A stretch of 32,000 bases of DNA from Methylophaga frappieri (GTDB taxonomy: Bacteria; Pseudomonadota; Gammaproteobacteria; Nitrosococcales; Methylophagaceae): positions 870,001 to 902,000 of the forward strand of contig NC_017856.1 in assembly GCF_000260965.1 (NCBI RefSeq). Direction: 5' to 3'. The position numbers were made by a program, and so were the translations under genes. Under the pieces are notes generated by a model. The model was not told where the DNA came from and searched no databases. It saw only the letters and a program-made list of their open reading frames with translations. Below, piece after piece: positions 13,658 to 31,193 of this stretch. How positions within the stretch are numbered: position 1 is the stretch's first letter; the number at the start of each line of letters is the position of its first letter.

Positions 13658-13849
13658 ATGATTGAAGTACGTTGTGGTGACTGTGGACGTTTGCTGGCCA
13701 GAGCCAGTTTTAGTCGAATTGAAATCAAGTGTCCGCGTTGTAAGACACTGAATAGCTTGAGGGCCATAGAGCCTCCAACCCAAGCACCAGCGAGTGCCAA
13801 CGTTGAGGTAAATCATGGCCAAGCCAATACTTCCATGGATGGGCGGTAA
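13658..13849 (+). CDS. com: Com-like zinc-finger protein (Mu Com family translational activator)
   Basis: MIEVRCGDCGRLLARASFSRIEIKCPRCKTLN has Cys at 6/9/25/28 (Mu Com: 6/9/26/29) and shares the IRCxxCxxLL...IEIxCPRCK pattern. GAGG SD at 13649-13652. The 3' end overlaps the methyltransferase start. Confidence 0.8.
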   Translation: MIEVRCGDCGRLLARASFSRIEIKCPRCKTLNSLRAIEPPTQAPASANVEVNHGQANTSMDGR

Positions 13850-14576
13850 AGCCCGTTTAGCAAAAGATATCCTGCCACTTTTCCCTGAGCATAATTGCTA
13901 TGTTGAGGTGTTTGCTGGTGGTGCCGCTTTGTTTTATAAAAAGCAGCCATCCAAGCACGAGATCATTAATGATATCAATGGTGAGTTAATCAACTTGTAT
14001 CGTGTGGTTCAGCATCACTTAGAAGAGTTTGTGCGACAGTTTAAATGGGCATTATCTAGTCGACAGATATTTGAGTGGGAGAAGCTGAAGCAGCCTGAAA
14101 CACTGACCGATATCCAACGCGCTGCGAGGTTCTATTACCTGCAAAAATCAGCCTTTGGCGCGCGTGTCGATAATCAGACTTTTGGAACGGCAACTACTGC
14201 CTCACCAAGATTAAACCTGCTTAGATTGGAGGAAGATCTAAGTGCCGCACATTTACGTTTAGCCAGAACAACGATTGAGAATATTGACTGGGCAAAATGT
14301 ATCGAGAAATATGACAGGCCACATACCCTTTTTTACCTTGATCCTCCCTATTATGAAACGGCTGGCTATGGTCAAAGCTTTGAGCGTGAGCAATACGCCT
14401 TGATGTCTGAATTAGCCAAAAGCATCAAAGGCAAAATGATCATCAGCATCAATGACCATGAATTTATCCGAGAGCAGTTTGCTGGTCTTGCTCATCGTTC
14501 GTTAAACATCAATTACACAGTGGCCGGAAATCATAAGAAAAAACCTGCTAAGGAGCTGCTCATCTGGAACTGGTGA
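13815..14576 (+). CDS. Dam-family (D12 class) N6-adenine DNA methyltransferase
   Basis: N-terminus KPILPWMGGKARLAKDILPLFP, motif I VEVFAGGAALF, motif IV FYLDPPY. 253 aa. GAGG SD at 13805-13808. Confidence 0.9.
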   Translation: MAKPILPWMGGKARLAKDILPLFPEHNCYVEVFAGGAALFYKKQPSKHEIINDINGELINLYRVVQHHLEEFVRQFKWALSSRQIFEWEKLKQPETLTDIQRAARFYYLQKSAFGARVDNQTFGTATTASPRLNLLRLEEDLSAAHLRLARTTIENIDWAKCIEKYDRPHTLFYLDPPYYETAGYGQSFEREQYALMSELAKSIKGKMIISINDHEFIREQFAGLAHRSLNINYTVAGNHKKKPAKELLIWNW

Positions 14577-14726: not shown

Positions 14727-17510
14727 ATGGTGGCCGATAAAAATCTTGATCTCGCATTACGCATTAGAACTGACCTTAAACAAGCGGTCGGTGAACTGAA
14801 TGCGCTCGAAAGCGAACTGACAAGTTTAGATGGTGCTGGCAAAAAAGCCGGTGCGGGCCTGGATAAAACGGCCTCTTCAGCCAACAAGGCGATAGTAAAT
14901 TTCGGCCGGATGACGCCAGCAGTCAATAATGCCGAGCAGGGTCTGCTCAGATTCCAGCGTATTGCGAACCAACTCAACAAAACTATGCCTGGCATTGCGC
15001 CTGGTGCATTGACTACCGGCATTCGTGAACAGAGCAGACAAATGGGCGCTGCCACACTGTCAGTCAAGCAATATCGCCAGGCTATGCGCCAGTTGCCGGC
15101 ACAAATCACCGATATCGGCACCAGCTTGGCTTCAGGCATGCCGATCTGGTTAGTGGCCATTCAACAAGGTGGCCAGATCCGCGATTCGTTTGGCGGTACC
15201 CGCGAGGCCGGTAAAGCGTTGCTGTCTACTATCAAGCCGATGCCTATTCTGTATGGCAGTATTGCAGCTGCAGCATTGTCAGTCGTTGTCGCTCATGAAA
15301 AAGGCGCAGCTGAGACAAGGCGCTTTAACGAGGCGCTGATTAACACTGGCAATGCCTCCGGTACCAGCACTGACAAGCTGAATGAGATGGCTGAACGTCT
15401 GGATAATATTGCTGGCACCCGTCGAAATGCGGCAGCTGCACTGGCTGAAATCACTGAGACAGGCAAGTTTACCGAACAACAAATTGAGCAAATCGGTCTC
15501 ACTGCTATCCAGATGCAGATAGCTACTGGTCGCGCGGTGAGCGCAACGGTCGAAGAGTTTGTTGCTTTATCTGAAGACCCGGTTGAAGCCATCACTAAAC
15601 TGAATGACCAGTATCACTTCCTGGATGCGGCGATTTATTCCAACATCAAATCACTGCAAGACCAGGGCAAAGAAGTCGAAGCGATCGATCTGGCCATCAA
15701 TACCTACGCTAACACTATGCAGCAACGCGCTGATGAGGTTGCTGGTAATCTTGGGATACTTGAACGGGGCTGGAAAGCTATAAAAAATGCAGCTGCTGAA
15801 GGCTGGGATGCCATGCTTGATATCGGGCGTGCCGATACGCTACAAGAAAGGCTGGATCAAGTTGAGTCACAATTAAACAGACGTATGCGGGGGCCGGCAA
15901 ATCAGCAGTCTGAGCGACGTGCTGAGCTGGAAGCTGAACGTCGAAGATTGCAACTGCTTATTCAGCAACGGGATGAGCTGGCACGTAATGAATCAGCACA
16001 GAAAAAAGCCGATGCTGAAGCCATCAGTGCTATGCAGGCAATCGACAAGCTCACCCAGTTAAATCTCAGCAATGAAGAAAAGCGCGTGCTGGCAATCAAG
16101 GAATATAAGGACCAGCTGGAAGCGATTCGTAATGTTAACCCGAACGATGAACGCCTGGATGATGCAAGGGTGGCCAGAAATATCGCTGGCATTAATGCCC
16201 GTTATCAAGATCGAAATTCTGGCAGTGACCGGGATCGCGCCGCCGAACAAGCTGCCCGTGATGCTGAGCGGTTGGCCGAATCTCAACAGCGTTATGTCGA
16301 ACAATTAGAACGCACAGCAGCCACTGCGAATAAAACAGCAGCTGAACTGCGTGCCTACGAGCTAACCGAACAATCACTGACTGGTGAACTTAAGCAACGT
16401 GCAACCGCTGCGTTGTCAGCCATTGACGCGCAGGAAAAAATGCAGCAGGCAATGGAAGACGGTCGGCAATTGTCGTCTATTCAGACTCAGATTTTACAAC
16501 TCGAAGGCAATACGATGGCAGCGCGCCAGGCCCAGCTTGATCAGCAGTTTGGCGAGTTGCGGGATCGGTTCGTGCAGCGTGGCGATCAGGCGGGTGCGGC
16601 ATTTATAGACAAGCTAATTAATCTTGAGATGGCTCGCACTCGATTGACTCAGGTGCAAGATGAAATCAGTCGGATATTGGCTGATCAGCAGCGTGTTGAA
16701 GATTCAATTAATGTCCAACAGGATGCTGGTCTGATTAATGAAGTTGAGGCGCGAAAGCAGATCCTCGATCTGCATAAACAAACCGCAGCAGTGCTGGAAC
16801 AGCAGCGGCCAGTGCTGGAGAAACTGGCACAAATGCCAGGCGTTATCGGTCAGAATGCAGCAGCTGCCTTGGCTGCTTTGGATACTCAGGCATTACGACT
16901 TAAAACCACGACAACGGAGCTCGCAACAACTGTAAAACAAGGGCTTGAGCAGGGTTTAAACAATGCGATTACCGGTCTTGCTGATGGCACCCTGACCCTG
17001 CGTGATGCTATCGGCACGCTTGTTGAGTCGATTGGCCGCGCTCTGATTCAGCTCGCTGCACAACAGGCAGCAGTGTCGATTGTTGGCGGTTTTGGCGGTG
17101 GTGGTTTTTTGGATTTCCTGGGCTTTGCAGATGGTGGTTGGACCGGGCCAGGCAGCAAATACCAGCCAGCAGGCATTGTTCATGCCGGTGAGTATGTTCA
17201 ACCTCAGTCAGTGATGCGGGAGCCCGGTGCCATGGCATTCATGGAGTCGTTTCGTCAAAACGGTATGGCCGCTCTGAGTCGCTTTCGTGGGTATGCTGAG
17301 GGTGGTCTAGTTGGCGGTTCAGGGCATCTGCCTGAGCAATCTGGCGGTCAAGCACGTAAATCCGGCGCGACTCATCTCAATCAGTACATCGCATTGGACC
17401 CTCAGGAACTGGCTGACTCGATAGCGAGTACACCAAATTTTGGCCAGAGCATTATGACTGTGATCCGGACAGAGCGCCGGCAGGTATCAACAATTTTGGA
17501 TGGTGGCTGA
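14727..17510 (+). CDS. Tail tape measure protein
   Basis: 927 aa, highly helical, Ala/Gln/Glu/Leu-rich, with a Gly-rich C-terminal part ([23 protein letters not shown] ... [10 protein letters not shown]). Follows the chaperone pair. Confidence 0.85.
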
Positions 17511-18721
17511 TGGCATTGCCAGACGGCGTTTCGGCCGTTTTCCCGTTTGCTCCGGACTGGTCAGATCCGGTGCAGGAGAGTTTTGCATATAAAACAAATG
17601 TATTGCGCTCACGCGATATGACTGGCCAGTGGCGCGGACTGCGCAGTAAACCGCGCGAGCAGCTAAATTACACGATTTTGCTGGGTGCCGACGACGCAGC
17701 CAGTTTTGATTATCGCTTTGGTCGACTACAGCCCTATACCTGGATGCTGCCACAGTGGTCCCGTCGGCGCTTTTTAGCATCTGCAGCCACTATCGGTACT
17801 AACACACTGTTGCTTGATGGCCCAGTCTCATATCTGGCTCGTGCCGGTGATGAATATATATTAATGCTGGGTGACGTAGAGCCTGAAGTCGTCGCTATTG
17901 AAAGCATCTCTGGTGACCGTCTGACCCTGACATTAACTAGTGCTCTCGATAGCAGTTGGCCATCGAGAGCCAAAGTCTATCCTGCCTGGCGTGCTCAAGT
18001 GGCCGGTGAGATGGAGGCCGAGTGGATTAGTAGTCATGTTATGCGCTGCCCGGTCAGTTTCAGACGCCTGGTTGATAACCGTGCTCCGGAAGCATCCAGC
18101 TTAACTGCTGACGAAACGCTTAATAGCTTGGAAGTACTGGTTCGCCCTGTCGACTGGTCAAAGCCAATTAATGTCACTTATGACTGGGTACCGGATTACA
18201 TCGATGCTGAAGTTGGCCCGTTTGAATCCGTAGTGCGTGGCCTGATTTCACGCCGCCTGCGTAAAGGTGAAGTGCTATGTGAAAGCCGTGATGAGGTCGA
18301 CTGGTGGCTTGCATTCCTCGACCGGCGCTCTGGCCAGCGTGTGCCGTTCATGATGCCGACCTGGCTCGGTGATTTGCAACTACAGCAGCCGCTGAGCGCC
18401 GGTATTGATTTTGAGGTTGCTGGCACCGATCTGGGCATGTTTTCACCGTCTTCTGGCACTTATACCCACCTGATGATCCGCAAAAAAAACGGCAGCGTGG
18501 CGTTTTTTGAGGTGTCCACGATTGCCGCCGATTTTGGCCTTGGCGTATCAACGGTGACAACGGTCGAGGATTGGGACGAATCATACGGTCCCTGGGAATG
18601 CAGTCAGATCAGTTTTGTCACCGTCTGCCATCTGGCCAGTGATGGTTTCACCGTCTCCTGGATTACTGACGAAGTGGCCAGAATTAACCTGGCAGTTATG
18701 ACTGAGGAAATCCCCGAATGA
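17510..18721 (+). CDS. Tail protein at the distal-tail (Dit) position; family not recognised with certainty
   Basis: 403 aa, ATGA-coupled to the tape measure and to the next gene. The N-terminus FPFAPDWSDPVQESFAYKTNVLRSRD... loosely recalls DUF2460-type tail proteins. Confidence 0.55.
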   Translation: MALPDGVSAVFPFAPDWSDPVQESFAYKTNVLRSRDMTGQWRGLRSKPREQLNYTILLGADDAASFDYRFGRLQPYTWMLPQWSRRRFLASAATIGTNTLLLDGPVSYLARAGDEYILMLGDVEPEVVAIESISGDRLTLTLTSALDSSWPSRAKVYPAWRAQVAGEMEAEWISSHVMRCPVSFRRLVDNRAPEASSLTADETLNSLEVLVRPVDWSKPINVTYDWVPDYIDAEVGPFESVVRGLISRRLRKGEVLCESRDEVDWWLAFLDRRSGQRVPFMMPTWLGDLQLQQPLSAGIDFEVAGTDLGMFSPSSGTYTHLMIRKKNGSVAFFEVSTIAADFGLGVSTVTTVEDWDESYGPWECSQISFVTVCHLASDGFTVSWITDEVARINLAVMTEEIPE

Positions 18722-19539
18722 CATTTAACGCCTACGAGACAAGCCGGCATTCAGGCACGCCCGCCGAACACCTGGAAATTGTCTACGGCGACAATCCGGT
18801 GGATGCCGTGCGGATGACCACTGCGGACTATAACGTGACGATAAACGGCAAAGAATATACGTCCGGCATGATCAAGCGCGACTCAATCTCGGACGACTCT
18901 AATCCGTACGACGGAGAGCAGCTAAAAATATCGCTGAACAGAGAAAATCCGTTTGCCGATATCTACCTTTCGCATGAGTTCGCTAACGTCATCACAGTGA
19001 CGCTCTATCAATCGCATCTTGATGATCCGGACACGCAGCCAGTCATTGTCTGGTCGGGGCGACTGGCCGGTGTTGAGTGGGAATATCCGATGATGATCCT
19101 GCTGAGTGAGCGCATGGATTTGTATATGAATGGCTATGCGCTGACGATGCGTTACCAGATTGGCCAGTGTGTGCATACCGTCTATCACGGCTTATGCGGA
19201 TTGATTAAATCCGAATGGGAAGTGGGGGGGGATGTCACGGACATTACCGACAAAACCGTGATCGAAATAACCGAGGCTGGCGGATATGGGGACGGCTATT
19301 TTACAGGCGGCATCCTGTCATTTGCAGGTATCAATCGCTACATACTGCAACACGTCGGCAACCAGGTTTGGCTTAATCGTCCGATAAAAAGCTTGATACC
19401 TGTCAGCGCTGTGAAGCTGTATCCGGGCTGTAATCGGCTACCGCAAACCTGTCTGAATAAGTTTAACAATATTGACAACTATCTCGCATTCGATTGGACA
19501 CCCGCGAAAGACGGTTACGACGGCAACAGTATATTTTAG
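18718..19539 (+). CDS. Tail tip/hub protein of the DUF2163 + phage BR0599 type (RcGTA g13-like)
   Basis: The C-terminal pattern ...DGYFTGGILSFAGINRYILQH...VKLYPGCNRLPQTCLNKFNNIDNYLAFDWTP matches the BR0599 domain signature (GC..x..C..KFxNxxN). Confidence 0.7.
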   Translation: MTFNAYETSRHSGTPAEHLEIVYGDNPVDAVRMTTADYNVTINGKEYTSGMIKRDSISDDSNPYDGEQLKISLNRENPFADIYLSHEFANVITVTLYQSHLDDPDTQPVIVWSGRLAGVEWEYPMMILLSERMDLYMNGYALTMRYQIGQCVHTVYHGLCGLIKSEWEVGGDVTDITDKTVIEITEAGGYGDGYFTGGILSFAGINRYILQHVGNQVWLNRPIKSLIPVSAVKLYPGCNRLPQTCLNKFNNIDNYLAFDWTPAKDGYDGNSIF

Positions 19540-19549
19540 GGGGCTAATT

Positions 19550-19774
19550 ATGGGATTTTGGATACAGCTATTAATCGGCGTGGCTTTGATGGCCATACAA
19601 ACCATCTTAAATAAGCCGCAAAAATCACCCTCTGCTACTGCAGAAAAATTAACTGTGCCTAGCGCAAAAACGGGGTCTAGCATTTATCTGATGCGCGGTA
19701 CTCGTGATATTGAGTCCCCTGGCGTGGTTAACAGGGGCAACACACGCGCTAAAGCAATCCGCAGGAAACCTTAA
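19550..19774 (+). CDS. Short ORF resembling the detached N-terminal segment (TM helix + conserved LxVxSAxxGxxI...GTxRI stretch) of J-like / GTA g15-like tail tip proteins
   Basis: GGGGG SD then ATG 19550. Sequence MGFWIQLLIGVALMAIQTILNKPQ...AEKLTVPSAKTGSSIYLMRGTRDIESPGVV. Same reading frame as the 19964 ORF. The track start at 19472 is rejected. Confidence 0.5.
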   Translation: MGFWIQLLIGVALMAIQTILNKPQKSPSATAEKLTVPSAKTGSSIYLMRGTRDIESPGVVNRGNTRAKAIRRKP

Positions 19775-19776
19775 CC

Positions 19777-19974
19777 GTGGCTAGAGTTTATATTCGGCAC
19801 ATTCGGCAACTTCGATATTGTCGTGACGGATTTCTAAACTGGGGCGCGAGAAATGGGTTCACTTTGCGCGAGTTTCGCAATGGCGTCGAGACCAAGGCGC
19901 TTCGTGAGACGGGCTGCCCGTTTGCAGTCGCAGTCGCAGAGTTGGCCGAGAAAGAGGTAGACGATGGGCGGTAG
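19777..19974 (+). CDS. 65-aa ORF of unknown function lying between the two parts of the tail tip gene
   Basis: GTG 19777 lies 2 nt after the upstream TAA, with AGGA at 19763-19766. Its end overlaps ATG 19964 by 11 nt. The frame differs from both neighbours. Confidence 0.4.
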   Translation: MARVYIRHIRQLRYCRDGFLNWGARNGFTLREFRNGVETKALRETGCPFAVAVAELAEKEVDDGR

Positions 19975-22861
19975 CGGGAAACGTCAAACGGTCGGGTATA
20001 AATACTACGAAGACCAACACTTGGTCCTTGCGCTTAGTAATTTTGACCATATCAGCCATATCTGGTTTGCTGAAAATCTGGCATGGGTGGGCATAGAAGA
20101 AGGTCTGACTGACGACTGGTCTACGATTGAGATCAGCCAACCTAAGTTATTTGGAGGGGAACAGCGTGAAGGCGGCGTATCCGGCACCATAAGACTGGGT
20201 ATGGGCTGGCCGACCCAACCACGGTTAGCACGTATGGTATCGCGAATTGGTGGTCCGCTAATGCCGGCCTACCGTGGTGTAGTCTCTCTATTTTTCGATG
20301 ATTTTTATTTCGGCAACAGCCCGTATATAAAGCCGATTAAATTCAGAGCGCAGGCAATTCATAAGCTCAGCGATGGGTCTCCACAGTGGTACGACGAGAA
20401 AGCTGCGATTTTCGGAGGCTATGACAGAACCCCTTCGGCTGTGCAGTTCTCCCTTGACGCCTCGGGGTCCATGTTCCCCCCGGATTCCAACAGATGGGCG
20501 GTTGTTAAAGAAGCCATGAACTCGGTTTTTGATTGGTTAACCGAGATCGGCATATCTCACGATATACGTGTCAATATATGGGCGTCAGGGTCACAGGCTT
20601 TAGCTAAGTATAATATTGATGCGGCAGCGATCTCAGAGTTGCGCGCTTTTGTAAACGCTGTCGATGCGTCAATGGGAGCCACCGATTTCACGGCGTCCAT
20701 ATACGCTATGTCCGCGTTTTTCAATACGAGCAATAAACCGATCAAAAAATTTATATTTTTGACGGACGGTGAGCCTTCGCCGGAAGGCACTGATATTGAG
20801 GCGAGTGAACAGTTAAGCAACATACCTAACGTTCAGGCACACGCTTTCAACATCGACCTTGCGGACACCTCGCACACGGAGCTGATGGACAACACGCCCG
20901 CAGACGGTGTGCCAGTGATTTCCGGCAGTAACGCAGACGCGATTGCGGACGCCCTCCGGTCGGCTTTTACCATGTGGGACATTAATCCGATCCATCTAAT
21001 GCGGGAGTGTCACACCGACAAAGTTTGGGGCGGACGGTTCCCCGAATCAAAGATGGGGGACAGCTACGAAACTGCGGCCGATACCCTATTTGAGGAAAAG
21101 TTAGGGGTATCATTCCTTTTCACAGAAGAAATCCGATGGCGTGAAATTATTGAAGAAATAGCACGCCACATCGACGCTATACCCTATCAGGACCCTGAAA
21201 CAGGTCTGATGGAGATAAAGCTGATCCGGGACGACTACGACCCGGAGACACTGCCGATCCTTGACCCTAGCAACTCTGAATTGGTCAATTTCAACGCTCC
21301 GATGGAGAACGAAATATTTAACCAGGTTGTTATCGAGTTCTGGAACAGAGAGACCGGTAAAGACGATTCAGTGACGCTCAGTGACGCGGCAGCCGTTGAC
21401 GCTGTGGGGTACATTAATCAAAAGACATATCAATACGCGGGTATCACTAATCGATATTCGGCTATGATTGTGGGTGAACGCGATCTGGCGCGATCCAGCA
21501 AGCCTTTTTATCAAGGACGCATTCGGACCAACCGCGTACATGCTAACCTGCGACCTGGTGATGTGTTCAAACTAAACTCGCCGGATGACGACATAGAGAC
21601 TATGGTGTGTCGTGTTACTAAACGCAATGAGTCTAGTCAACTCAACGGCGACATTACGCTTGAGTGGGCGGAGGACGTGTTTGGGCAGGTGTTCAGCACT
21701 TTCGGTACCCCGGCAGGGACCCAGTGGTCGGACTCAACGTCCATATCAGGTTCGATAAAACATAAAACCGCGTTTGAGATACCTTATTTCTTAGCGATGC
21801 AACTCGTCGGTGAGCAGGCTATCCCCTCGGAAAATACATCAGCCGCCTACGGGTTCGCGGCAGCAGAGCCTAGTTCGGGGGTTTCCTTGGGTTATGATCT
21901 CTACGTTTATCCAGAAGGGACAACTCAAGAACCAGACCCCGAGGAAGCGATAGAGAGTGCATACACGCCAACTTTGATCGCGGCCAGTTCGATCTCTGAC
22001 CGGCAAGAGACTGTGATACCGATATCCAGTGAGATAGGAGTCGAGTCACTCTCTGTGGGACAGTTGGTCTTGATCGGTAACGCGCTAGACGCGGAGCGGG
22101 AGATCGCCGCCGTCTCTGTAGAGTTTACTAGCGGGGACAGCGTACTGTACTTATTACGCGGCGTCGCAGACACCCTCCCACTACCGATCCCAGCAGGCGC
22201 GCCACTCTACGTCATCGGAGAGGAACTTAGCTACAGCGAGACAATATTCCTCCCAGGGGAAACTGTTGAGGGGTACGCGGTAGCGAACAGCGCTGGTGGA
22301 ACTGAACCAGGTCCTTACGCAAAACACGCTGTTGAAATGGACGGGCGCATATTCAAACCCTATCCACCCGCCAATTTTCGCGTAGAAGGGTTGCTGTACC
22401 CAGGGGAACTCTACCAGCCGCCGAGTGCGTCTGTCACATTCACATGGTCATATAGGGACCGCATAATCCAAGCTGATCAGGTTGTTTCTTATTTTAACTC
22501 GGACGACTACGGACCCGAAGTGGGAACGACCTACTTAATTGAAGCCGACGCACTGGACGTTGACGGCTTGTTAATCGAAGAAAACTGGTTTTCAGAAGAC
22601 CTTGGCTCCGTCAAGACCTATGATTTGGATTTTGTTACATATCCAACGCCCACGGATACGTTTTTTGTTGTTATCCGTTTGTGGGCGGTTCGGGAGGATG
22701 AAAGGTCATTGCAAGCACCTTTCGTTCAGTTCATCGCCCCCGATGCCGACCCAGATGAGATCGACAGAGACTTGCTATCTCAAGAACGGCCTATCGCCAC
22801 TTTCACGGCCGTTATTTTGGGCGAAAACGGTGAGTACATCGAAATGGAGAGACCAGAATGA
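19964..22861 (+). CDS. Tail tip / host-specificity (J-like, central fibre) protein carrying an internal vWA (MIDAS) domain
   Basis: AAGAGG SD. The N-terminus MGGSGKRQTVGYKYY... and the later INPIHLMRECHTDKVWG...IKLIRDDYDPETL... are typical of this tip-protein family. aa ~158-335 form a vWA domain (LDASGSM, GATDF, FLTDGEP). Confidence 0.8.
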   Translation: MGGSGKRQTVGYKYYEDQHLVLALSNFDHISHIWFAENLAWVGIEEGLTDDWSTIEISQPKLFGGEQREGGVSGTIRLGMGWPTQPRLARMVSRIGGPLMPAYRGVVSLFFDDFYFGNSPYIKPIKFRAQAIHKLSDGSPQWYDEKAAIFGGYDRTPSAVQFSLDASGSMFPPDSNRWAVVKEAMNSVFDWLTEIGISHDIRVNIWASGSQALAKYNIDAAAISELRAFVNAVDASMGATDFTASIYAMSAFFNTSNKPIKKFIFLTDGEPSPEGTDIEASEQLSNIPNVQAHAFNIDLADTSHTELMDNTPADGVPVISGSNADAIADALRSAFTMWDINPIHLMRECHTDKVWGGRFPESKMGDSYETAADTLFEEKLGVSFLFTEEIRWREIIEEIARHIDAIPYQDPETGLMEIKLIRDDYDPETLPILDPSNSELVNFNAPMENEIFNQVVIEFWNRETGKDDSVTLSDAAAVDAVGYINQKTYQYAGITNRYSAMIVGERDLARSSKPFYQGRIRTNRVHANLRPGDVFKLNSPDDDIETMVCRVTKRNESSQLNGDITLEWAEDVFGQVFSTFGTPAGTQWSDSTSISGSIKHKTAFEIPYFLAMQLVGEQAIPSENTSAAYGFAAAEPSSGVSLGYDLYVYPEGTTQEPDPEEAIESAYTPTLIAASSISDRQETVIPISSEIGVESLSVGQLVLIGNALDAEREIAAVSVEFTSGDSVLYLLRGVADTLPLPIPAGAPLYVIGEELSYSETIFLPGETVEGYAVANSAGGTEPGPYAKHAVEMDGRIFKPYPPANFRVEGLLYPGELYQPPSASVTFTWSYRDRIIQADQVVSYFNSDDYGPEVGTTYLIEADALDVDGLLIEENWFSEDLGSVKTYDLDFVTYPTPTDTFFVVIRLWAVREDERSLQAPFVQFIAPDADPDEIDRDLLSQERPIATFTAVILGENGEYIEMERPE

Positions 22862-23610
22862 GCTTAGTATTTAAGAAAATTTCGGATTATCTGGCATTAG
22901 CGGGTTCAGCACTACGCGGGAATGAATTCATACTGCTATCCGACACAGAGTCCGACGGCAGCTACACCGCGACAACCATCGCCTACGATGCTGGCACGAA
23001 GACGATATCTGACTCTAATAACTCACTGCCACTGGTTAAACCCGGCGGCTATGTGCAGGTGACCGGATCTACTGTTAGTGCGCTCAATGGTGTGCATGAG
23101 GTTGTCTCATCGACAGCGGGAGCGATAGTCATAACTTCGGCAGTGGCGACCCCCGAGACTGCGGGTGCGTCAATCACCATTGCTGAGATCGCAGCAAACT
23201 ACCGTACTACGCTGGCTGATCTTCAAGCATTTTTCACTGCCGCGTCGATACCAAACCCACTGAACGGCGTCAATATTCAAAACGCCTGGGCAGATAAAAT
23301 ACGCGGCAAGCCGGTCGATGTAACAGGAAATATCTCCGGCAACGCTCTTGATTTTGACTATGATGACGGCGATTTCCAATACGCGACACTGAGCGCTGCA
23401 GACACCGATATCACTGTGAGCAACATGCCCGCCGGTGCTCAGCTAAAAATAATATTGTTTGCCGCAGATACTTATGCCCCTGATGTATCGGCACTGACAC
23501 CACTGCTCAATGGTGACGGGATTACATTTAGCCCAGTGACAGTAATACTTGCAGAAACACTAAATAACACAACAATCAGATATATAGCAGCAGGGGGGTA
23601 CGCGTCATGA
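22858..23610 (+). CDS. Tail-associated protein of unknown function (distal fibre module)
   Basis: 250 aa, ATGA-coupled to the tip protein and to the next gene. Ser/Thr/Ala/Gly-rich and apparently beta-rich. Confidence 0.45.
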   Translation: MSLVFKKISDYLALAGSALRGNEFILLSDTESDGSYTATTIAYDAGTKTISDSNNSLPLVKPGGYVQVTGSTVSALNGVHEVVSSTAGAIVITSAVATPETAGASITIAEIAANYRTTLADLQAFFTAASIPNPLNGVNIQNAWADKIRGKPVDVTGNISGNALDFDYDDGDFQYATLSAADTDITVSNMPAGAQLKIILFAADTYAPDVSALTPLLNGDGITFSPVTVILAETLNNTTIRYIAAGGYAS

Positions 23611-24317
23611 TGCCGCAGCGAAGATGGAGACGGGCTGTTAGTAAGCCGTCGCCACTGGTGCCGGGGGACTATATAGCTCTATGGCTGATGGCCGGTGATG
23701 CAACGGACGTAACGGGCGATTACGATATTGGCCTGTTTGGTGGCGCAGATCAGCATGAAGACCATGTCGACTATGATGGGAATAATGATTACGGTCAGTG
23801 CGCGAGACTGGCTTTCAACGATAACGCCTTTACGCTCATTATGCTCGTGCGTTTTGACGGGTTCGATACCGATGGAGTTTGGATCGCTAACAGCCGCAGC
23901 GACGACGATGTGACGGCGAAGAACGAGTGGCAGCTAACTGTCTTCTCACCCGCCTCTGGAGGTCTCAATAAGCCTCGCGTATCGATTTGCAACACCGAGG
24001 GTACTTTTCACTCAGCCACATTTAACGAGGCTATTGCAGTAGGTACCTGGTACACCGTATCTGTTAGGTTCACTGGTAGCGCAGTGCAGATTTTTAACGG
24101 ATTAAGTTTGCAGGAAAGTACCGAATTTACCGGCACCATGAATACCGGCTCCACGAATACTAGATTCGCTCGGCGTGGCTGGAATCAAGAAAGTGCGAGC
24201 ACAGTTATTCACGGACACTTGGATCAATCTCGTAGCATTGCGTACGACTATGCACTATCGGATGCTGAACTAGCGGCAACTATAACGGCGATCACAACCG
24301 GAGTCGGATTGGTTTGA
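23607..24317 (+). CDS. LamG / concanavalin-A-like lectin-fold protein, probable receptor-binding tail component
   Basis: Pattern ...FTLIMLVRFDG...WQLTV...GTWYTVSVRFTGSAVQIFNGLSLQES...GHLDQSRSIAYDYALSDAELAA is typical of Laminin_G_3-type domains. It is the last phage gene. Confidence 0.6.
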   Translation: MMPQRRWRRAVSKPSPLVPGDYIALWLMAGDATDVTGDYDIGLFGGADQHEDHVDYDGNNDYGQCARLAFNDNAFTLIMLVRFDGFDTDGVWIANSRSDDDVTAKNEWQLTVFSPASGGLNKPRVSICNTEGTFHSATFNEAIAVGTWYTVSVRFTGSAVQIFNGLSLQESTEFTGTMNTGSTNTRFARRGWNQESASTVIHGHLDQSRSIAYDYALSDAELAATITAITTGVGLV

Positions 24318-24366
24318 TAGTTCTATTCTGGAAAAGGTTTTTATTATTTGTAACAGATAATAAAGT

Positions 24367-24410
24367 TAAATTATCGCGCACCCAGGTTGGTTTTATCGCG
24401 CGCGGCTACA
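24367..24410 (+). repeat. Mu attR-like terminal transposase-binding repeats (R2-like 24367-24388, R1-like 24389-24410) ending in the terminal CA
   Basis: The exact 9-mer TTATCGCGC occurs at 24371-24379 and 24393-24401, 22 bp apart. The terminal GGTTTTATCGCGCGCGGCTACA resembles the Mu right end ...CGTTTTTCGTGCGCCGCTTCA. Confidence 0.7.
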
Positions 24411-24449
24411 GCAAGTTATAAAAAAATAGCAGATTAATGAAATTAATTC

Positions 24450-24478
24450 TTGCAAATGTGAATTATTATCATTAATAT
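24450..24478 (+). promoter_or_regulatory. Sigma70-type promoter: -35 TTGCAA, 17-nt spacer, -10 TAATAT
   Basis: TTGCAA at 24450-24455 and TAATAT at 24473-24478, with AT-rich upstream DNA. Confidence 0.45.
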
Positions 24479-24484
24479 TAACAA

Positions 24485-24561
24485 CAGATGGTCGCCACGG
24501 TAACCATCTCTCTCTGACACTGACAGACTTTATGCCAGCCCTCGGGCTGGCATTTTTTTTA
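24485..24561 (+). ncRNA. Candidate ~77-nt small RNA or leader/attenuator transcript (5' hairpin, single-stranded CTGACACTGACA stretch, intrinsic terminator)
   Basis: A promoter lies just upstream. A 7-bp hairpin forms from 24487-24493 and 24504-24510. The terminator is at 24535-24561. No protein ORF explains the unit. Confidence 0.35.
24535..24561 (+). terminator. Canonical rho-independent terminator
   Basis: GCCAGCC-CTCG-GGCTGGC (7-bp GC-rich stem) followed by A and T8 (24554-24561). Confidence 0.65.
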
Positions 24562-24588
24562 TCTGCCTCACATCAACTATCTCCATGT

Positions 24589-24594
24589 ATAATC
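24589..24594 (+). promoter_or_regulatory. Consensus -10 hexamer TATAAT (preceded by TG) upstream of ybiT; candidate proximal ybiT promoter
   Basis: TGTATAAT at 24587-24594. No good -35 is present. It lies 50 nt upstream of the TTG start. Confidence 0.3.
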
Positions 24595-24644
24595 ACGCCT
24601 TTTTGGCAGAAATCTGTCTCTAGCTTAATCTCAGGATCCACACC

Positions 24645-26240
24645 TTGCTTAGTACAGCCAATATCACCATGCAGTTCGGCGCCAAGCCGCTTTTCGAAAA
24701 CGTTTCTGTCAAGTTTGGCGAAGGAAACCGTTATGGCCTCATTGGCGCCAATGGCTGCGGAAAATCGACTTTTATGAAAATTCTTGCAGGATTGCAAGAG
24801 CCTAGTTCAGGCAATGTTGTTCGTGATCCCAATGAGTCATTTGCTGTCTTGAAACAAGACCAGTTTGCTTATGAAAGCGACCGCGTCATTGACGTAGTGA
24901 TTATGGGACAACCGCAACTCTGGGCAGTGCACCGTGAAAGAGAGCGTATTTATAGTCTGCCAGAAATGAGTGAAGAAGATGGTCTGAAAGTGGCAGAACT
25001 TGAGGGCCAATATGCTGAGCTAGATGGCTATACCGCTGAATCTCGTGCTGGAGAATTATTGCTTGGCGTCGGTATTCCAGTTGCCCAGCATTACGGGCCA
25101 ATGAGTGAAATTGCGCCAGGCTGGAAATTGCGTATTTTACTGGCGCAGGTATTGTTTGCGGATCCAGATATCCTACTGCTCGATGAACCCACTAACCACT
25201 TGGATATTAATACCATTCGCTGGCTGGAAGGCGTATTAAATCAGCGCAACAGCACCATGATCATCATCTCTCATGATCGCCACTTTCTGAATAGCGTCTG
25301 CACACACATGGCGGACATGGATTATGGAGAACTTCGCCTCTATCCCGGCAATTATGATGATTACATGATTGCCTCGACACAGGCCCGTGAACGCTTACAG
25401 GCTGATAACGCGCGTAAAAAAGCGCAAATTAAAGAGCTACAAGAGTTTGTTTCTCGCTTTTCCGCCAATGCTTCCAAAGCCAAACAAGCCACCTCTCGGC
25501 AAAAACAAATCGATAAAATCCAATTGGAAGATATGAAACCTTCCAGTCGGGTTAATCCTTTTATTCGATTTCAGCAAGATAAAAAGCTGTTTCGTAATGC
25601 ATTGGAAGTGACGCATCTGACACAGGGTTACGCCGATGAGCAGCCGCTGTTTAAAAAACTGAATTTGAGGGTCGAAGTCGGTGAAAAAATTGCCATTATT
25701 GGCCCGAATGGCATTGGTAAAACGAGTCTGGTTAAAACGTTGATTGGCGATTTGGCGGCGATTTCCGGAGAAATTAAATGGTCTGAAAATGCCAACATTG
25801 GTTACTACGCACAAGACCACGATCACCAATTCAAACAAAATTTAACCTTGTTCGAGTGGATGCAACAATGGGCCGGTTCTGGAGATGATGAGCAAGTGAT
25901 TCGCGGTACCTTGGGGCGTTTGTTGTTTTCGGGCTCCCAAATCGACAAAAAAGTAAATGTCTTATCCGGTGGCGAAAAAGGACGGATGCTGTTCGGCAAG
26001 TTGATTCTGCAAAAGCCGAATATTCTGGTGATGGATGAACCTACTAATCACATGGATATGGAATCCATTGAATCGCTTAATTACGCACTGGAACAATTTG
26101 ATGGCACCTTGCTGTTTGTCTCGCATGACCGTGAATTTGTCTCCTCCTTAGCGGATCGGATTCTGGATATTCAAACCGATGGCGTGACTGACTTTCATGG
26201 CAATTATGAAGCGTACTTACAGCATCTAGGCGTTAATTAA
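24645..26240 (+). CDS. ybiT: ABC-F family ATPase YbiT (two ABC domains, no TM domain)
   Basis: [49 protein letters not shown]... is collinear with E. coli YbiT as I recall it, including the N-terminus (supporting TTG 24645 with AGGA at 24633-24636). There are two Walker A and signature (LSGGEK) sets. Confidence 0.9.
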
Positions 26241-26274
26241 TCCTTACCGGATTTTCGTCAGGATTTAAGCAAAG

Positions 26275-26304
26275 CGCCGACATATTTAAATCAATATGTC
26301 GGCG
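26275..26304. terminator. Hairpin between the convergent ybiT and dodecin genes (likely bidirectional terminator)
   Basis: CGCCGACATAT (26275-26285) pairs with ATATGTCGGCG (26294-26304) around an 8-nt loop. AAA lies upstream and TTTT a few nt downstream. Confidence 0.6.
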
Positions 26305-26313
26305 TAGGCGTTT

Positions 26314-26523
26314 TCAGTCATCCAATCGAAAACCAATCTTGATGGTTACCTGCCAATACTTCACTTTGCCTTCTTCAATATAGCCTCGGGTATCTATGAC
26401 TTGAAACCAATGTACTTGATGCAGACTTTGCGTTGCTTTGGCAATGGCATTCTCAATCGCCTTATCCGAGCTCTCCGTCGAACTACCAGTAATTTCGATG
26501 TGTTTGTAAATATGATCAGACAT
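26314..26523 (-). CDS. Dodecin-family flavin-binding protein
   Basis: The 69-aa sequence MSDHIYKHIEITGSSTESSDKAIENAIAKATQSLHQVHWFQVIDTRGYIEEGKVKYWQVTIKIGFRLDD matches the dodecin pattern (YK.IE..GSS..S...AI..AI..A...L....WF.V...RG.I..G.V..YQV.....F.L.D). Confidence 0.8.
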   Translation of the reverse strand: MSDHIYKHIEITGSSTESSDKAIENAIAKATQSLHQVHWFQVIDTRGYIEEGKVKYWQVTIKIGFRLDD

Positions 26524-26792
26524 GACTGCTCCTCTGCATTTAATAAATTGTTTACAAGCACACTGACCAGCGGCTGCGTGTCATCGACACGATTAATATC
26601 CACAAAGACCAGATAGCCCTATCTTAGACTGAACAAGGCAAGGCTTGCCAGCGATAAAAAATAACGCCCAGCCAACCTGAATAAATAAATGATTTTGCTA
26701 TCATTTAACATAAATGAACGGTATAATCACCAACTCCGTTTTATCCCCAGACCGTTTGCCTAAATAGCTCACTGTCCTTCACAGGTTACTCC

Positions 26793-28592
26793 ATGTCTAC
26801 AGAACAACACGATGCAGCGCCCTCATTTTCTGAGTTAGGGCTAGCCCCCGCTATTCTTGAAGCCGTACAACAAGCTGGCTATGAAACGCCCTCACCTATT
26901 CAGGCGCAGAGTATTCCACCGCTGCTCACCGGCCGCGATCTGTTGGGTCAGGCACAAACCGGCACCGGTAAAACCGCGGCTTTCTCTCTGCCGTTATTAA
27001 GCCGACTTGACCTAAAAAGCAAAGCCACACAGCTACTCGTGCTGGCTCCGACGCGGGAATTGGCCATTCAGGTATCTGAAGCAATGCAATCTTATGCCCG
27101 GCACCTGAAAGATTTTCATATTCTGCCGATTTACGGCGGTCAAAGTGTCGGCATTCAATTACGGGCGTTAAAACGCCAACCTCAGGTAATTGTCGGTACG
27201 CCAGGTCGAATTTTGGATCATATCCGGCGTCGAACTTTGAAACTCGATCAATTACAGGCTTTGGTGCTCGATGAAGCCGATGAAATGCTGCGCATGGGCT
27301 TCATCGATGATGTTGAAACCATTCTGCAGCAGACACCGGATAGTCGTCAGGTTGCCTTATTTTCCGCAACCATGCCTGGCCCGATTCATCGAGTGGCGCA
27401 AAAATATCTGAAGGATCCGGTTGAAGTCCGTATCAAGTCAAACACGTCAACAGTCGAAACCATAAACCAACGCTACTGGCAGGTCACAGGTCTACACAAG
27501 CTGGACGCACTGACCCGGATTCTGGAAGTCGAAAACTTTGATGGCATGATCATCTTTGTCCGCACCAAAAATGCCACGGTGGAACTGGCAGAAAAACTAG
27601 AAGCACGTGGCTATTCCGCTTCAGCTATCAATGGCGATATGAATCAGGCCTTGCGAGAGAAAACCATTGAACGCATGAAAAAGGGACAAATTGATATTCT
27701 GATTGCCACGGATGTTGCTGCTCGGGGACTGGACATCGAGCGCATGAGCCATGTGGTGAATTACGATATCCCTTATGATACCGAGTCTTACGTTCACCGA
27801 ATTGGCCGTACCGGCCGTGCTGGTCGCCAGGGCGAAGCCATTCTGTTCGTGTCACCGCGCGAAAAAAGAATGTTGGCGGCGATTGAAAAAGCAACACGCC
27901 AAACCATCACCCGCATGCAGCTGCCGAGCACGGAAGAAATTGCCGACCGGCGTGTTATCCAGTTTATGGAAACCTTAACGGAAACCATCGAATCTCAGGA
28001 CCTGAGTTATTTTGAAAACTTGATGCAACGTTATCAGCAAGAGCATAACGCTGACCCGATGGATATGGCTGCTGCATTGACCTATCTACTGCAAAAAGAT
28101 CGGCCTCTCAACCCGCCAGTTAAACATGTCAGCGAACGCAAACCACGAGAAAACGCCAACGAACGACAGTTTAATGATGAGCGTCTACCTCGCCGCGAGC
28201 GACGCAAGGATTTTCGTGCGGATGACCGCCACCCAACTGATCCTGATATGGACATTTATCGCGCCGAAGTCGGCCGTGTTGATAATGTTGAGCCACGTAA
28301 TCTGGTTGGCGCCATTGCCAACGAGGCCGGTATCGAAAGCCGCTTTATTGGCCGGATTACCATTAATGAAGATCACAGTTTAATTAATTTGCCGCAGGGC
28401 ATGCCCAAAGATATCTTCCAACATCTGCGTAAGGTTTGGGTCGCCAACAAACAACTCAATTTGAGCCTTGCTAACGATGAGATCGATAATTCTCCGGCTC
28501 CGATTCGGCCCAAGCTGAATAAGGCGAGAGGAGCAGGAAGAGCGCTTAATGCGGGTAATCGCCCCAAACAGCGCACCAGCAAAAAGCGCTAA
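26793..28592 (+). CDS. deaD: Cold-shock DEAD-box RNA helicase DeaD/CsdA
   Basis: Q-motif region FSELGLAPAILEAVQQAGYETPSPIQ, AQTGTGKTAAF, DEAD, SAT, HRIGRTGRAG, and the C-terminal DbpA-like RNA-binding part (YRAEVGRVDNVEPRNLVGAIANEAGI). Collinear with E. coli DeaD as I recall it. Confidence 0.9.
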   Translation: MSTEQHDAAPSFSELGLAPAILEAVQQAGYETPSPIQAQSIPPLLTGRDLLGQAQTGTGKTAAFSLPLLSRLDLKSKATQLLVLAPTRELAIQVSEAMQSYARHLKDFHILPIYGGQSVGIQLRALKRQPQVIVGTPGRILDHIRRRTLKLDQLQALVLDEADEMLRMGFIDDVETILQQTPDSRQVALFSATMPGPIHRVAQKYLKDPVEVRIKSNTSTVETINQRYWQVTGLHKLDALTRILEVENFDGMIIFVRTKNATVELAEKLEARGYSASAINGDMNQALREKTIERMKKGQIDILIATDVAARGLDIERMSHVVNYDIPYDTESYVHRIGRTGRAGRQGEAILFVSPREKRMLAAIEKATRQTITRMQLPSTEEIADRRVIQFMETLTETIESQDLSYFENLMQRYQQEHNADPMDMAAALTYLLQKDRPLNPPVKHVSERKPRENANERQFNDERLPRRERRKDFRADDRHPTDPDMDIYRAEVGRVDNVEPRNLVGAIANEAGIESRFIGRITINEDHSLINLPQGMPKDIFQHLRKVWVANKQLNLSLANDEIDNSPAPIRPKLNKARGAGRALNAGNRPKQRTSKKR

Positions 28593-28602
28593 ACCACTAA
28601 AA

Positions 28603-28630
28603 AGTCACTGCATGCAGTGACTTTTTTTTT
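28603..28630 (+). terminator. Rho-independent terminator of deaD
   Basis: AGTCACTGCA/TGCAGTGACT is a perfect 10-bp inverted repeat (28603-28622), followed by a T run to 28630 and preceded by an A run (possibly bidirectional). Confidence 0.75.
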
Positions 28631-28650
28631 CAGCATGCCAAAATAACCCG

Positions 28651-29880: not shown

Positions 29881-30006
29881 AGCACAAGGCCAGTCCAAAA
29901 TAAATCTACTGCTAGCCGCATTTTCTGCTACATTTTATCGCCCCGCATGGGCATAGCCTTGTTGAATTCGATTCACAAGTTATTGTGCTGATGGAGAAAT
30001 GATGCC

Positions 30007-31185: not shown

Positions 31186-31193
31186 ACAACAAG

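What the first reader, a model, noticed from the sequence alone, without database searches (positions are those of the whole stretch)
20435..20968. Complete vWA/MIDAS domain embedded inside the J-like tail tip protein
Residues ~158-335 of the 965-aa tip protein have the full metal-ion-dependent adhesion site. This comprises DxSxS (LDASGSM, D165/S167/S169), Thr (GATDF, T240) and Asp (FLTDGEP, D268), in a Rossmann-like alternating pattern. The flanking sequences (MGGSGKRQTVGYKYY...KPIKFRAQ before it, INPIHLMRECHTDKVWG... after it) are, as far as I recall this family, normally contiguous. The vWA therefore looks like a domain insertion.

vWA/MIDAS domains are classic cation-dependent adhesion modules, for example in pilus-tip adhesins and integrin I domains. 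One placed at a phage tail tip suggests metal-dependent receptor binding or a role in tail assembly. I do not recognise this as a described tail architecture.
Basis: partly seen in the sequence, partly recalled or inferred. Interest (0 to 1): 0.7.

Follow-up and report, generated by a model that had tools for sequence, protein, structure and literature searches.

The report
vWA adhesion domain in phage hub
A prophage tail-tip (baseplate hub) protein carries an inserted metal-binding vWA adhesion domain at a site where related phages carry other binding domains; the domain is real but already present in sequenced phages, and its function is untested.

Summary
ORF 19964-22861 (965 aa; Methylophaga frappieri Q7C_848) is a baseplate hub / gpJ-like tail-tip protein. 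It is homologous to the solved hubs of phages Chi (8VJH) and JBD30 (8RK3). Those hubs align to residues 1-155 and 339-861 and lack the 183 residues in between.

That segment models with pLDDT 95 as a vWA fold. Its best structural matches are adhesin vWA and integrin I domains. D165, S167, S169, T240 and D268 form a complete MIDAS, kept in 185 of 197 related domains.

The architecture is not unique. Collinear hubs occur in 21 cultured-phage records; Bordetella phage MW2's is annotated "von Willebrand factor type A". The vWA domain matches 239 protein clusters, most of them hubs of this architecture.

The site is an exchange hot-spot. Of 120 homologues, 116 carry an insert there: 62 vWA, the rest lectin-like, beta-sandwich or roughly 450-aa modules. 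The same vWA clade also decorates Dit-like and gpL-like proteins.

Most likely it is an outward-facing, cation-dependent accessory adhesin for the host surface. This function is inferred, not shown. No paper describing it was found. I rate it a new member of a known kind, of moderate interest.

The parts
19964..22861 (+). Baseplate hub / gpJ-like tail-tip protein, 965 aa (Methylophaga frappieri Q7C_848). A Shine-Dalgarno-like AAAGAGG lies 8 nt upstream of the ATG.
   Evidence: ORF. PF13550 Phage-tail_3 at E=1.2e-10. phrog_1101 at E=6e-189. 8vjh_A (phage Chi) at E=8.6e-65 and 8rk3_o (JBD30 gp53) at E=9.2e-63. 100% identical to P0001. RBS read.
19964..20428 (+). N-terminal hub segment, aa 1-155, conserved in all family members.
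   Evidence: Aligns to residues 1-150 of Chi and 1-142 of JBD30 hubs. 69-73% identical in the closest homologues.
20429..20977 (+). Inserted vWA domain, aa 156-338.
   Evidence: Absent from the solved hubs. AF2 pLDDT 95.2. Foldseek matches vWA adhesin and I domains. VWA_2 at 28 bits. phrog_15205 matches aa 159-333.
20456..20470 (+). MIDAS DxSxS motif (D165-A-S167-G-S169), at the end of strand beta1.
   Evidence: Invariant in 30 of 30. D 190, S 190 and S 187(+3 T) of 190 aligned. Strand E9-16 of the model ends at D165.
20681..20683 (+). MIDAS threonine T240 (GATDF).
   Evidence: T in 191 of 196 aligned domains. Lies in a loop before helix 93-96 of the model.
20765..20767 (+). MIDAS aspartate D268 (FLTDGEP), at the end of strand beta4.
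   Evidence: D in 195 of 196. Strand E111-118 of the model ends just before it.
20849..20914 (+). Clade-specific conserved loop after beta5, aa 296-317 (N-I-D-L-x-D-T-x-x-T-x-x-M-D-N-T-P-x-D-G-V-P). Its role is unknown. Its position on the MIDAS face is predicted from strand topology only.
   Evidence: N296, T302, T305, D309, N310, T311, D314 and P317 are kept in 166-180 of 197 domains. Follows strand E141-148.
20978..22861 (+). Hub core resumes at aa 339 (INPIHLM...). It includes Phage-tail_3 (aa 393-552) and the C-terminal part.
   Evidence: Aligns to Chi 159-700 and JBD30 152-661. Pfam. This core is found in 734 phage records.
14727..17510 (+). Context: tape measure protein.
   Evidence: PF06791 at E=2e-74; phrog_24.
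17510..18721 (+). Context: Dit-like tail-tip protein, 403 aa. In other phages its homologues carry the same vWA clade.
   Evidence: phrog_1082. 10 vWA-bearing homologues.
18718..19539 (+). Context: gpL-like / upper-baseplate protein (Phage_BR0599), 273 aa, without a vWA here.
   Evidence: PF09356 at E=2.7e-16. phrog_15205 covers this ORF plus a vWA, meaning the two are fused in other phages.
19550..19974 (+). Context: two small tail genes (74 aa at 19550-19774; 65 aa at 19777-19974) between the gpL-like gene and the hub gene.
   Evidence: phrog_1180 at E=8e-14 and phrog_1196 at E=1.5e-13. The same pair is present in MW2, Elanor, PaMx28, L005 and L006.
22858..24317 (+). Context: downstream 250-aa protein and 236-aa Laminin_G_3 (ConA-like lectin) protein. 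These are probable fibre or receptor-binding proteins and the last prophage genes.
   Evidence: PF13385 at E=1.9e-8. The 250-aa protein is 56% identical to the one next to a non-vWA hub.

Best explanation
**What it is (shown).** The 965-aa protein is the trimeric baseplate hub of a siphophage-type prophage, of the lambda gpJ / T5 pb3 / JBD30 gp53 class. A complete vWA domain (aa 156-338) is inserted between its N-terminal about 155 residues and the rest of the hub core. The domain has an intact five-residue MIDAS metal site.

**How it most likely works (inferred).**
- The vWA is a peripheral decoration that acts as an accessory adhesin.
- vWA termini lie together on the face opposite the MIDAS (general knowledge of the fold). 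Both termini are tethered to the hub, so the MIDAS face should point away from the hub.
- A bound Mg2+/Ca2+/Mn2+ would complete its coordination with an acidic group of a host surface molecule, either an outer-membrane protein or an anionic glycan.
- This would give three cation-dependent contacts around the tail tip. They would help hold or orient the tip before the primary trigger.

**Evolution.** The site is a cassette-exchange hot-spot. vWA, ConA-like lectin, sugar-binding-like beta-sandwich and larger modules replace one another there. The same tail-specific vWA clade is also grafted onto Dit-like and gpL-like tip proteins.
For: **Identity**
- Hub homology to solved structures and Pfam/PHROG families.
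- vWA fold at pLDDT 95.2.
- Best PDB matches are adhesive vWA domains: LapA, SpaC pilus-tip adhesin, TRAP, integrin I and anthrax-toxin receptors.
- VWA_2 above its gathering score when the domain is scanned alone.

**Selection on the metal site**
- Full D-S-S-T-D in 185 of 197 domains.
- Invariant in 30 of 30 in alignment A1.

**Decoration rather than core**
- The solved hubs function without it.
- Among the five closest homologues (flanks 64-73% identical), two carry a vWA that is only 37-48% identical. Three carry unrelated inserts.
- On a rough neighbour-joining tree of 116 hub cores, insert type needs at least 31 changes, and vWA versus non-vWA at least 11.
- Other inserts at the site are Laminin_G_3/ConA-like. 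One is a beta-sandwich weakly resembling GH2 sugar-binding, PA14 and CBM35 domains.

**Mobility within the tip complex**
- The vWA clade sits in gpJ-like hubs (about 160 proteins), Dit-like proteins (10) and gpL-like proteins (4).
- Phages such as MW2 and PaMx28 have two copies.

**No co-varying partner**
- The downstream 250-aa protein is 56% identical next to a non-vWA hub and unrelated next to a vWA hub.
- The gpL-like and first small protein are equally similar in both loci.
Against: - No experiment or solved structure shows metal or ligand binding.
- The orientation of the domain in the assembled trimer was not modelled.
- The co-variation test rests on only two loci.
- vWA domains also mediate intra-complex protein-protein contacts, so fibre docking is not excluded.
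- The lectin-like assignment of the P0004-type alternative cassette is weak (Foldseek E about 3e-4, TM about 0.45).
- Most other cassettes have no Pfam match.
- Only about 3% of cultured phages with this hub core (21 of 734 records) have the vWA. It is therefore dispensable for the family.
Confidence: 0.55

Rival explanations
1. Intra-virion docking module. The MIDAS metal binds an acidic residue of another tail component, such as side fibres or the downstream 250-aa or Laminin_G_3 proteins. The vWA would then be an attachment socket rather than a host-binding site.
For: vWA domains commonly mediate protein-protein assembly (general knowledge). In JBD30 the hub provides attachment sites for fibres and receptor-binding proteins. 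Some phages carry two vWA copies on adjacent tip proteins.
Against: The downstream 250-aa protein is kept at 56% identity next to a hub with a non-vWA insert, and is absent next to another vWA hub. The gpL-like and small proteins do not co-vary with insert type. The same site holds lectin-like modules in close relatives. The vWA clade moves between three different carrier proteins.
Confidence: 0.2
2. Integrin-I-domain-like allosteric sensor. Ligand binding at the MIDAS shifts the C-terminal helix, which runs directly into the hub core. This movement helps trigger hub opening and DNA ejection.
For: The domain is inserted by both termini, like an integrin alpha-I domain. Its C-terminal helix (model residues 175-187) leads straight into the conserved INPIHLM hub segment. 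Integrin I domains are among the best fold matches.
Against: The site tolerates unrelated beta-sandwich and lectin cassettes that have no such switch. The same vWA also occurs as a terminal fusion on gpL-like and Dit-like proteins. No data on conformational states exist.
Confidence: 0.1
3. Functionally inert passenger, or purely structural filler: a relic of domain shuffling with no binding role.
For: Hubs without any insert are functional (Chi, JBD30). Only 21 of 734 phage records with this hub core have the vWA.
Against: The MIDAS pentad is intact in 185 of 197 domains, while the remainder of the domain diverges faster than the hub flanks. A further clade-specific loop is conserved. The insert shows no compositional anomaly or decay.
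Confidence: 0.07

Closest known systems
Baseplate hub proteins of siphophages JBD30 (gp53, PDB 8RK3) and Chi (PDB 8VJH); more distantly lambda gpJ and T5 pb3
   Same: Sequence-homologous over aa 1-155 and 339-861 (E about 1e-63). Same gene order: TMP, Dit-like, gpL-like, two small genes, hub.
   Different: The solved hubs have nothing at the insertion site. This protein has a 183-aa vWA there.
Hub proteins of cultured phages: Bordetella MW2/CN1/CN2/FP1/LK3, Xanthomonas Elanor/Mallos, Stenotrophomonas Bhz59/QH3, Erythrobacter R6L/ZS04, Pseudomonas PaMx28, and Variovorax phages
   Same: Same architecture with the vWA at the same position. The MW2 protein is collinear over 854 aa at 34% identity and is annotated "von Willebrand factor type A".
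   Different: Only 29-36% identity in the vWA. Several of these phages carry a second vWA on the gpL-like protein, which this prophage lacks. None has been functionally characterised in the literature I could search.
Integrin alpha-I (inserted) domains and bacterial adhesin vWA domains (LapA, SpaC pilus tip, TRAP, CMG2/TEM8)
   Same: Same fold, with a complete DxSxS-T-D MIDAS. Like the I domain, it is inserted into a host domain through adjacent termini.
   Different: Only 13-20% sequence identity. The segment after beta5 is a clade-specific conserved loop rather than a canonical helix. No evidence for ligand or allostery.
Carbohydrate-binding and other decoration domains on Dit, Tal or hub proteins (evolved Dit, HDII insertions, OB/Ig decorations)
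   Same: Peripheral, exchangeable accessory modules on conserved tail-tip scaffolds. Lectin-like cassettes occupy the same site in relatives.
   Different: The module here is a metal-dependent vWA rather than a beta-sandwich CBM. No description of this type on a siphophage hub was found.
vWA domains noted in other tail-like machines: Bacillus phage 0305phi8-36 gp164 and eCIS tail fibres
   Same: A vWA within baseplate or fibre proteins, interpreted as swapped adhesion modules (PMC2147016, PMC12923769).
   Different: Different carrier proteins (myophage baseplate/fibre, contractile injection systems). Not the siphophage hub insertion site.

Membership tests
[quoted passage not shown] | Alpha/beta Rossmann-like fold: central mostly parallel beta-sheet flanked by helices | tested here: met
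   AF2 model at pLDDT 95.2 and pTM 0.91, with alternating E/H elements. 415 PDB matches at E<=1e-3, the top ones all vWA/I domains at TM about 0.7.
[quoted passage not shown] | Profile-HMM match at the curated threshold | tested here: met
   VWA_2 at 28.0 bits against a cutoff of 27 for the isolated domain. This is marginal: 23.7 bits, below the cutoff, in the full-length protein. 29 of 30 homologous inserts match VWA_2 and 21 of 30 match PF00092.
[quoted passage not shown] | DxSxS after beta1, Thr in a following loop, and Asp after beta4 | tested here: met
   D165/S167/S169 at the end of strand 9-16; T240 in a loop; D268 after strand 111-118. Conserved in 185 of 197 domains.
[quoted passage not shown] | Actual divalent-cation and ligand binding | not testable with these tools
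   Needs ITC, crystallography or adsorption assays.
Siphophage baseplate hub (gpJ / pb3 / JBD30 gp53 class) | Homology to structurally defined hubs and to Phage-tail_3 | tested here: met
   8vjh_A at E=8.6e-65; 8rk3_o at E=9.2e-63. PF13550 at 42 bits against a cutoff of 23. phrog_1101 at E=6e-189.
Siphophage baseplate hub (gpJ / pb3 / JBD30 gp53 class) | Gene position downstream of TMP, Dit and the gpL-like protein | tested here: met
   TMP 14727-17510, Dit-like 17510-18721, BR0599 18718-19539, two small genes, then the hub.
Siphophage baseplate hub (gpJ / pb3 / JBD30 gp53 class) | Trimer closing the tail tip in the virion | not testable with these tools
   Inferred from JBD30. No multimer modelling was available.
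Integrin alpha-I-type allosteric inserted domain | Inserted in a host domain through both termini | tested here: met
   Flanks are near-contiguous in Chi and JBD30 hubs.
Integrin alpha-I-type allosteric inserted domain | Open/closed switch of the C-terminal helix coupled to the MIDAS | not testable with these tools
   Only a single static model, without coordinates, was available.
Exchangeable decoration cassette on tail-tip scaffolds | Unrelated domains occupy the same site in close homologues | tested here: met
   116 of 120 homologues have an insert. 62 are vWA; the remaining 54 fall into 14 other clusters. The closest relatives differ in cassette while their flanks stay 64-73% identical.

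The most novel reading that the evidence does not exclude
The hub-inserted vWA may be a phage counterpart of the integrin I domain: a metal-dependent receptor sensor. Ligand engagement at the MIDAS would be transmitted through its C-terminal helix into the hub core and would help gate tail-tip opening and DNA ejection. The tail-specific vWA clade, with its conserved post-beta5 loop, would then define a previously undescribed class of cation-dependent phage receptor-binding modules that can be moved between Dit, gpL-like and gpJ-like scaffolds.
Probability: 0.1. Interest if true: 0.75.

Novelty: new member of a known kind. Interest (0 to 1): 0.38.

Why it matters
**If the vWA is a cation-dependent adhesin**
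- It would add a metal-dependent, integrin-like binding mode to the known set of siphophage host-recognition modules, which are mostly beta-sandwich CBMs, Ig/FN3, OB folds and fibres.
- It could explain part of the divalent-cation requirement for adsorption in phages that carry it. These include Bordetella, Xanthomonas, Stenotrophomonas, Pseudomonas (PaMx28) and Erythrobacter phages.

**Practical use**
- The hub site after residue about 150 tolerates many unrelated domains.
- That makes it a natural grafting point for engineering host range.

**For annotation**
- This is an ordinary prophage hub with a known type of decoration.
- Public databases already flag the vWA domain.

Tried and rejected
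- **Word-indexed protein search with the insert alone.** No hits, because of the k-mer prefilter rather than true absence. The exhaustive HMMER search then found 239 clusters.
- **PDB sequence search with the insert alone.** Nothing significant. Fold search was needed.
- **Pfam on ten non-vWA cassettes.** Only two clear Laminin_G_3 matches; seven had no match.
- **The P0004-type cassette.** The model is only moderately confident (pLDDT 81). Its similarity to sugar-binding beta-sandwiches is weak, so I use it as a hint only.
- **Nine literature searches** for vWA/MIDAS in phage tails, hubs, Dit or fibres. No description of this architecture was found. Papers on Mesyanzhinovviridae (Lydia), JBD30 and Avs-1 do not mention a vWA.
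- **Recent foreign acquisition.** Rejected: GC is 0.517 in the insert against 0.497 and 0.512 in the flanks.
- **Dedicated partner gene for the vWA.** Rejected on limited data.
- **tRNA or att site near the prophage end.** No tRNA was found in the window.
Full report
**Where the finding sits**

The finding lies inside ORF 19964-22861 (+), 965 aa. The ORF has a good Shine-Dalgarno sequence, AAAGAGG, 8 nt upstream of the ATG.

The protein is 100% identical to Methylophaga frappieri Q7C_848. NCBI calls it hypothetical, and UniRef already names it "VWFA domain-containing protein".

The window carries the late (head and tail) gene module of a siphophage-type prophage:
- large terminase, portal, protease, major capsid protein and a major tail protein with an Ig-like domain;
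- tape measure protein at 14727-17510;
- a Dit-like protein at 17510-18721;
- a gpL-like / Phage_BR0599 protein at 18718-19539;
- two small tail genes at 19550-19774 and 19777-19974;
- the 965-aa protein;
- a 250-aa protein and a Laminin_G_3 protein ending at 24317.

After these comes a bacterial ABC-F-type ATPase gene, judged from its duplicated Walker motifs in the translation and not scanned against a family library.

**Is it a hub protein with an insertion?**

Yes. The protein matches PF13550 Phage-tail_3 (42 bits, cutoff 23) and phrog_1101 (E=6e-189).

It also matches two solved tail-tip proteins:
- 8vjh_A, the central hub/fibre protein of phage Chi (E=8.6e-65);
- 8rk3_o, the baseplate hub gp53 of JBD30 (E=9.2e-63).

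In both, query 1-155 aligns to their residues 1-150 (Chi) or 1-142 (JBD30). Query 339-861 then resumes at residue 159 (Chi) or 152 (JBD30). So about 183 residues here have no counterpart. PHROG profile spans are shorter than the query by about 170-200 residues, in line with this.

**Is the insert a vWA with a MIDAS?**

Yes.
- The isolated segment scores 28.0 bits on VWA_2 (cutoff 27; E=3.5e-6). 29 of 30 homologous inserts match VWA_2. In the full-length protein the score is just below the cutoff (23.7 bits).
- An AlphaFold2 model built on 30 aligned inserts (A1) has mean pLDDT 95.2 and pTM 0.91, with an alternating beta/alpha pattern.
- Foldseek against the PDB gives 415 matches at E<=1e-3. 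The top ones are all vWA domains with adhesive roles: LapA, mussel PTMP1, CMG2/TEM8, the SpaC pilus-tip adhesin, Plasmodium TRAP and integrin I domains (E about 1e-9, TM about 0.7).
- DxSxS follows strand 1, T240 lies in a loop, and D268 follows strand 4. These are the canonical topological positions.
- Across 197 related domains the full D-S-S-T-D pentad is present in 185. Most exceptions are truncated fragments.
- A further segment after strand 5 (aa 296-317, N-I-x-L-x-x-T-x-x-T-x-x-x-D-N-T-P-x-D-G-x-P) is conserved in this clade only. I could not explain it.

**How unusual is it?**

- A tblastn of the insert finds 21 cultured-phage records: Bordetella FP1/CN1/CN2/LK3/MW2, Xanthomonas Elanor/Mallos, Stenotrophomonas Bhz59/QH3, Erythrobacter R6L/ZS04, Pseudomonas PaMx28 and two Variovorax phages.
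- In the three I inspected, the match lies at the same position of a 917-945-aa hub, downstream of the same gene series.
- The MW2 protein is collinear with ours over 854 aa (34% identity) and is annotated "von Willebrand factor type A".
- An exhaustive HMMER scan of 1.84 billion cluster representatives finds 239 matches at E<=1e-3. The great majority are 900-1400-aa proteins with the domain at about 150-345.
- By contrast, the hub core without the insert occurs in 734 phage records. The vWA form is therefore a minority (about 3%) among cultured phages.

**The site is an exchange hot-spot**

For the 120 best full-length homologues, I located the conserved blocks on either side and measured the gap.
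- 116 have an insert of 110-490 aa, one (P0084) has none, and the remaining three could not be measured.
- With a profile of the vWA inserts, 62 are vWA. The remaining 54 fall into 14 unrelated clusters.
- Two singletons are Laminin_G_3/ConA-like.
- The largest non-vWA cluster models as a beta-sandwich (pLDDT 81). It has weak similarity to GH2 sugar-binding, PA14 and CBM35 domains (E about 3e-4, TM about 0.45).
- A cluster of about 450 aa, also present in Aeromonas phage vB_C4, has no match.
- Exchange is recent. The five closest homologues are 69-73% (N-terminal) and 64-67% (core) identical to our protein. Two of them carry a vWA that is only 37-48% identical, and three carry unrelated inserts.
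- On a rough neighbour-joining tree of hub cores, insert type needs at least 31 changes, and vWA versus non-vWA at least 11.
- The insert has no GC anomaly.

**The vWA clade is a mobile tail decoration**

I classified the 193 vWA-bearing proteins by what else they contain:
- about 160 are gpJ-like hubs;
- 10 are homologues of the Dit-like protein, with the vWA internal or C-terminal;
- 4 are gpL-like/BR0599 proteins with an N-terminal vWA, which is the phrog_15205 architecture seen;
- 19 have no detectable partner domain.

PaMx28's 483-aa gpL-like fusion is the best match in the viral structure library. Several phages have two copies.

**Mechanism**

Shown: the hub identity, the insertion, the vWA fold, the conserved MIDAS, the cassette exchange, and the mobility of the domain among three tip proteins.

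Inferred, in steps:
- vWA termini are adjacent and lie opposite the MIDAS (general knowledge of I domains). An inserted vWA should therefore present its metal site away from the hub.
- The hub is a trimer in JBD30, so three such sites would surround the tip.
- Close relatives place lectin-like modules at the same spot. The best fold matches are adhesins. The metal site is under strong purifying selection while the rest of the domain diverges faster than its flanks.
- The most economical reading is therefore a cation-dependent accessory adhesin for a host surface ligand.

I tested the main rival, a docking socket for another virion protein, by asking whether neighbouring genes co-vary with the insert.
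- The downstream 250-aa protein is 56% identical next to a non-vWA hub (L006) and unrelated next to a vWA hub (L005).
- The gpL-like and first small protein are equally similar in both loci.

This argues against a dedicated partner, but it rests on two loci. An integrin-like allosteric trigger is possible. It is made less likely by the interchangeability with unrelated folds and by the terminal fusions.

**Comparison with the literature**

- Decoration of conserved tail-tip scaffolds by exchangeable binding domains is well known. Examples are OB domains on JBD30 Dit, HDII insertions and an OB insertion in lambda-type hubs, and galactose-binding folds on Dit.
- vWA domains have been noted in the baseplate/fibre region of Bacillus phage 0305phi8-36, explicitly as a swapped domain.
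- They have also been noted in eCIS tail fibres.
- I found no paper describing a vWA/MIDAS domain in a siphophage hub, Dit or gpL-like protein. A review of Mesyanzhinovviridae tail proteins does not mention it.

**Verdict**

- The object is a new member of an already sequenced and auto-annotated, but functionally uncharacterised, subfamily of decorated hubs.
- The most useful by-product is the definition of the insertion hot-spot and of a tail-specific vWA clade.
- Interest is moderate.

Noticed in passing
window 13815-14576 (+): A DNA methyltransferase gene (phrog_56, E=1.7e-93) sits inside the tail gene block, just upstream of the tape measure gene. A MethyltransfD12 gene occupies the same place in the related locus L005. 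It looks like a conserved moron, possibly for anti-restriction.
   Followed up: partly
window 19550-19774 and 19777-19974 (+): Two small genes (74 and 65 aa; phrog_1180 and phrog_1196) lie between the gpL-like gene and the hub gene. The first begins with a hydrophobic stretch. The second overlaps the hub start by 11 nt. The pair is conserved in MW2, Elanor, PaMx28, L005 and L006.
   Followed up: partly
window 20849-20914 (aa 296-317 of the hub): A loop after strand 5 (NIDLxDTxxTxxMDNTPxDGVP) is conserved in the tail-specific vWA clade and replaces the usual helix. It resembles an acidic Ca-binding-type loop, but its role is unknown.
   Followed up: partly
window 22858-24317 (+): The last two prophage genes are a 250-aa protein with no family match and a 236-aa Laminin_G_3 (ConA-like) protein. 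The 250-aa protein is 56% identical to the one in L006. The lectin proteins share only their first about 13 residues, which suggests a conserved N-terminal anchor with swapped binding domains.
   Followed up: partly
window about 24317-24645: Probable right end of the prophage. GC is 0.516 for 1-24317 against 0.478 for 24645-32000. An ABC-F-type ATPase gene, judged from its translation only, follows at 24645-26240. There is no tRNA in the window, and the attachment site was not identified.
   Followed up: partly
L004 3243-7823 (Aeromonas phage vB_C4) and proteins P0019-P0028: Hubs of 1234-1526 aa carry an insert of about 450-500 aa at the same site. It has no Pfam match, and its fold and function are unknown.
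   Followed up: no
protein P0121 (932 aa, metagenomic): A protein with two copies of the tail-type vWA (aa 181-366 and 670-857) and no detectable hub, Dit or gpL homology. 18 other vWA-clade proteins also have no recognisable partner.
   Followed up: no
proteins P0010, P0013, P0036, P0046 and others: A subset of vWA hubs has an N-terminal extension of about 85-160 aa, so the vWA sits at about 240-260. This may be a fusion with an upstream small gene.
   Followed up: no
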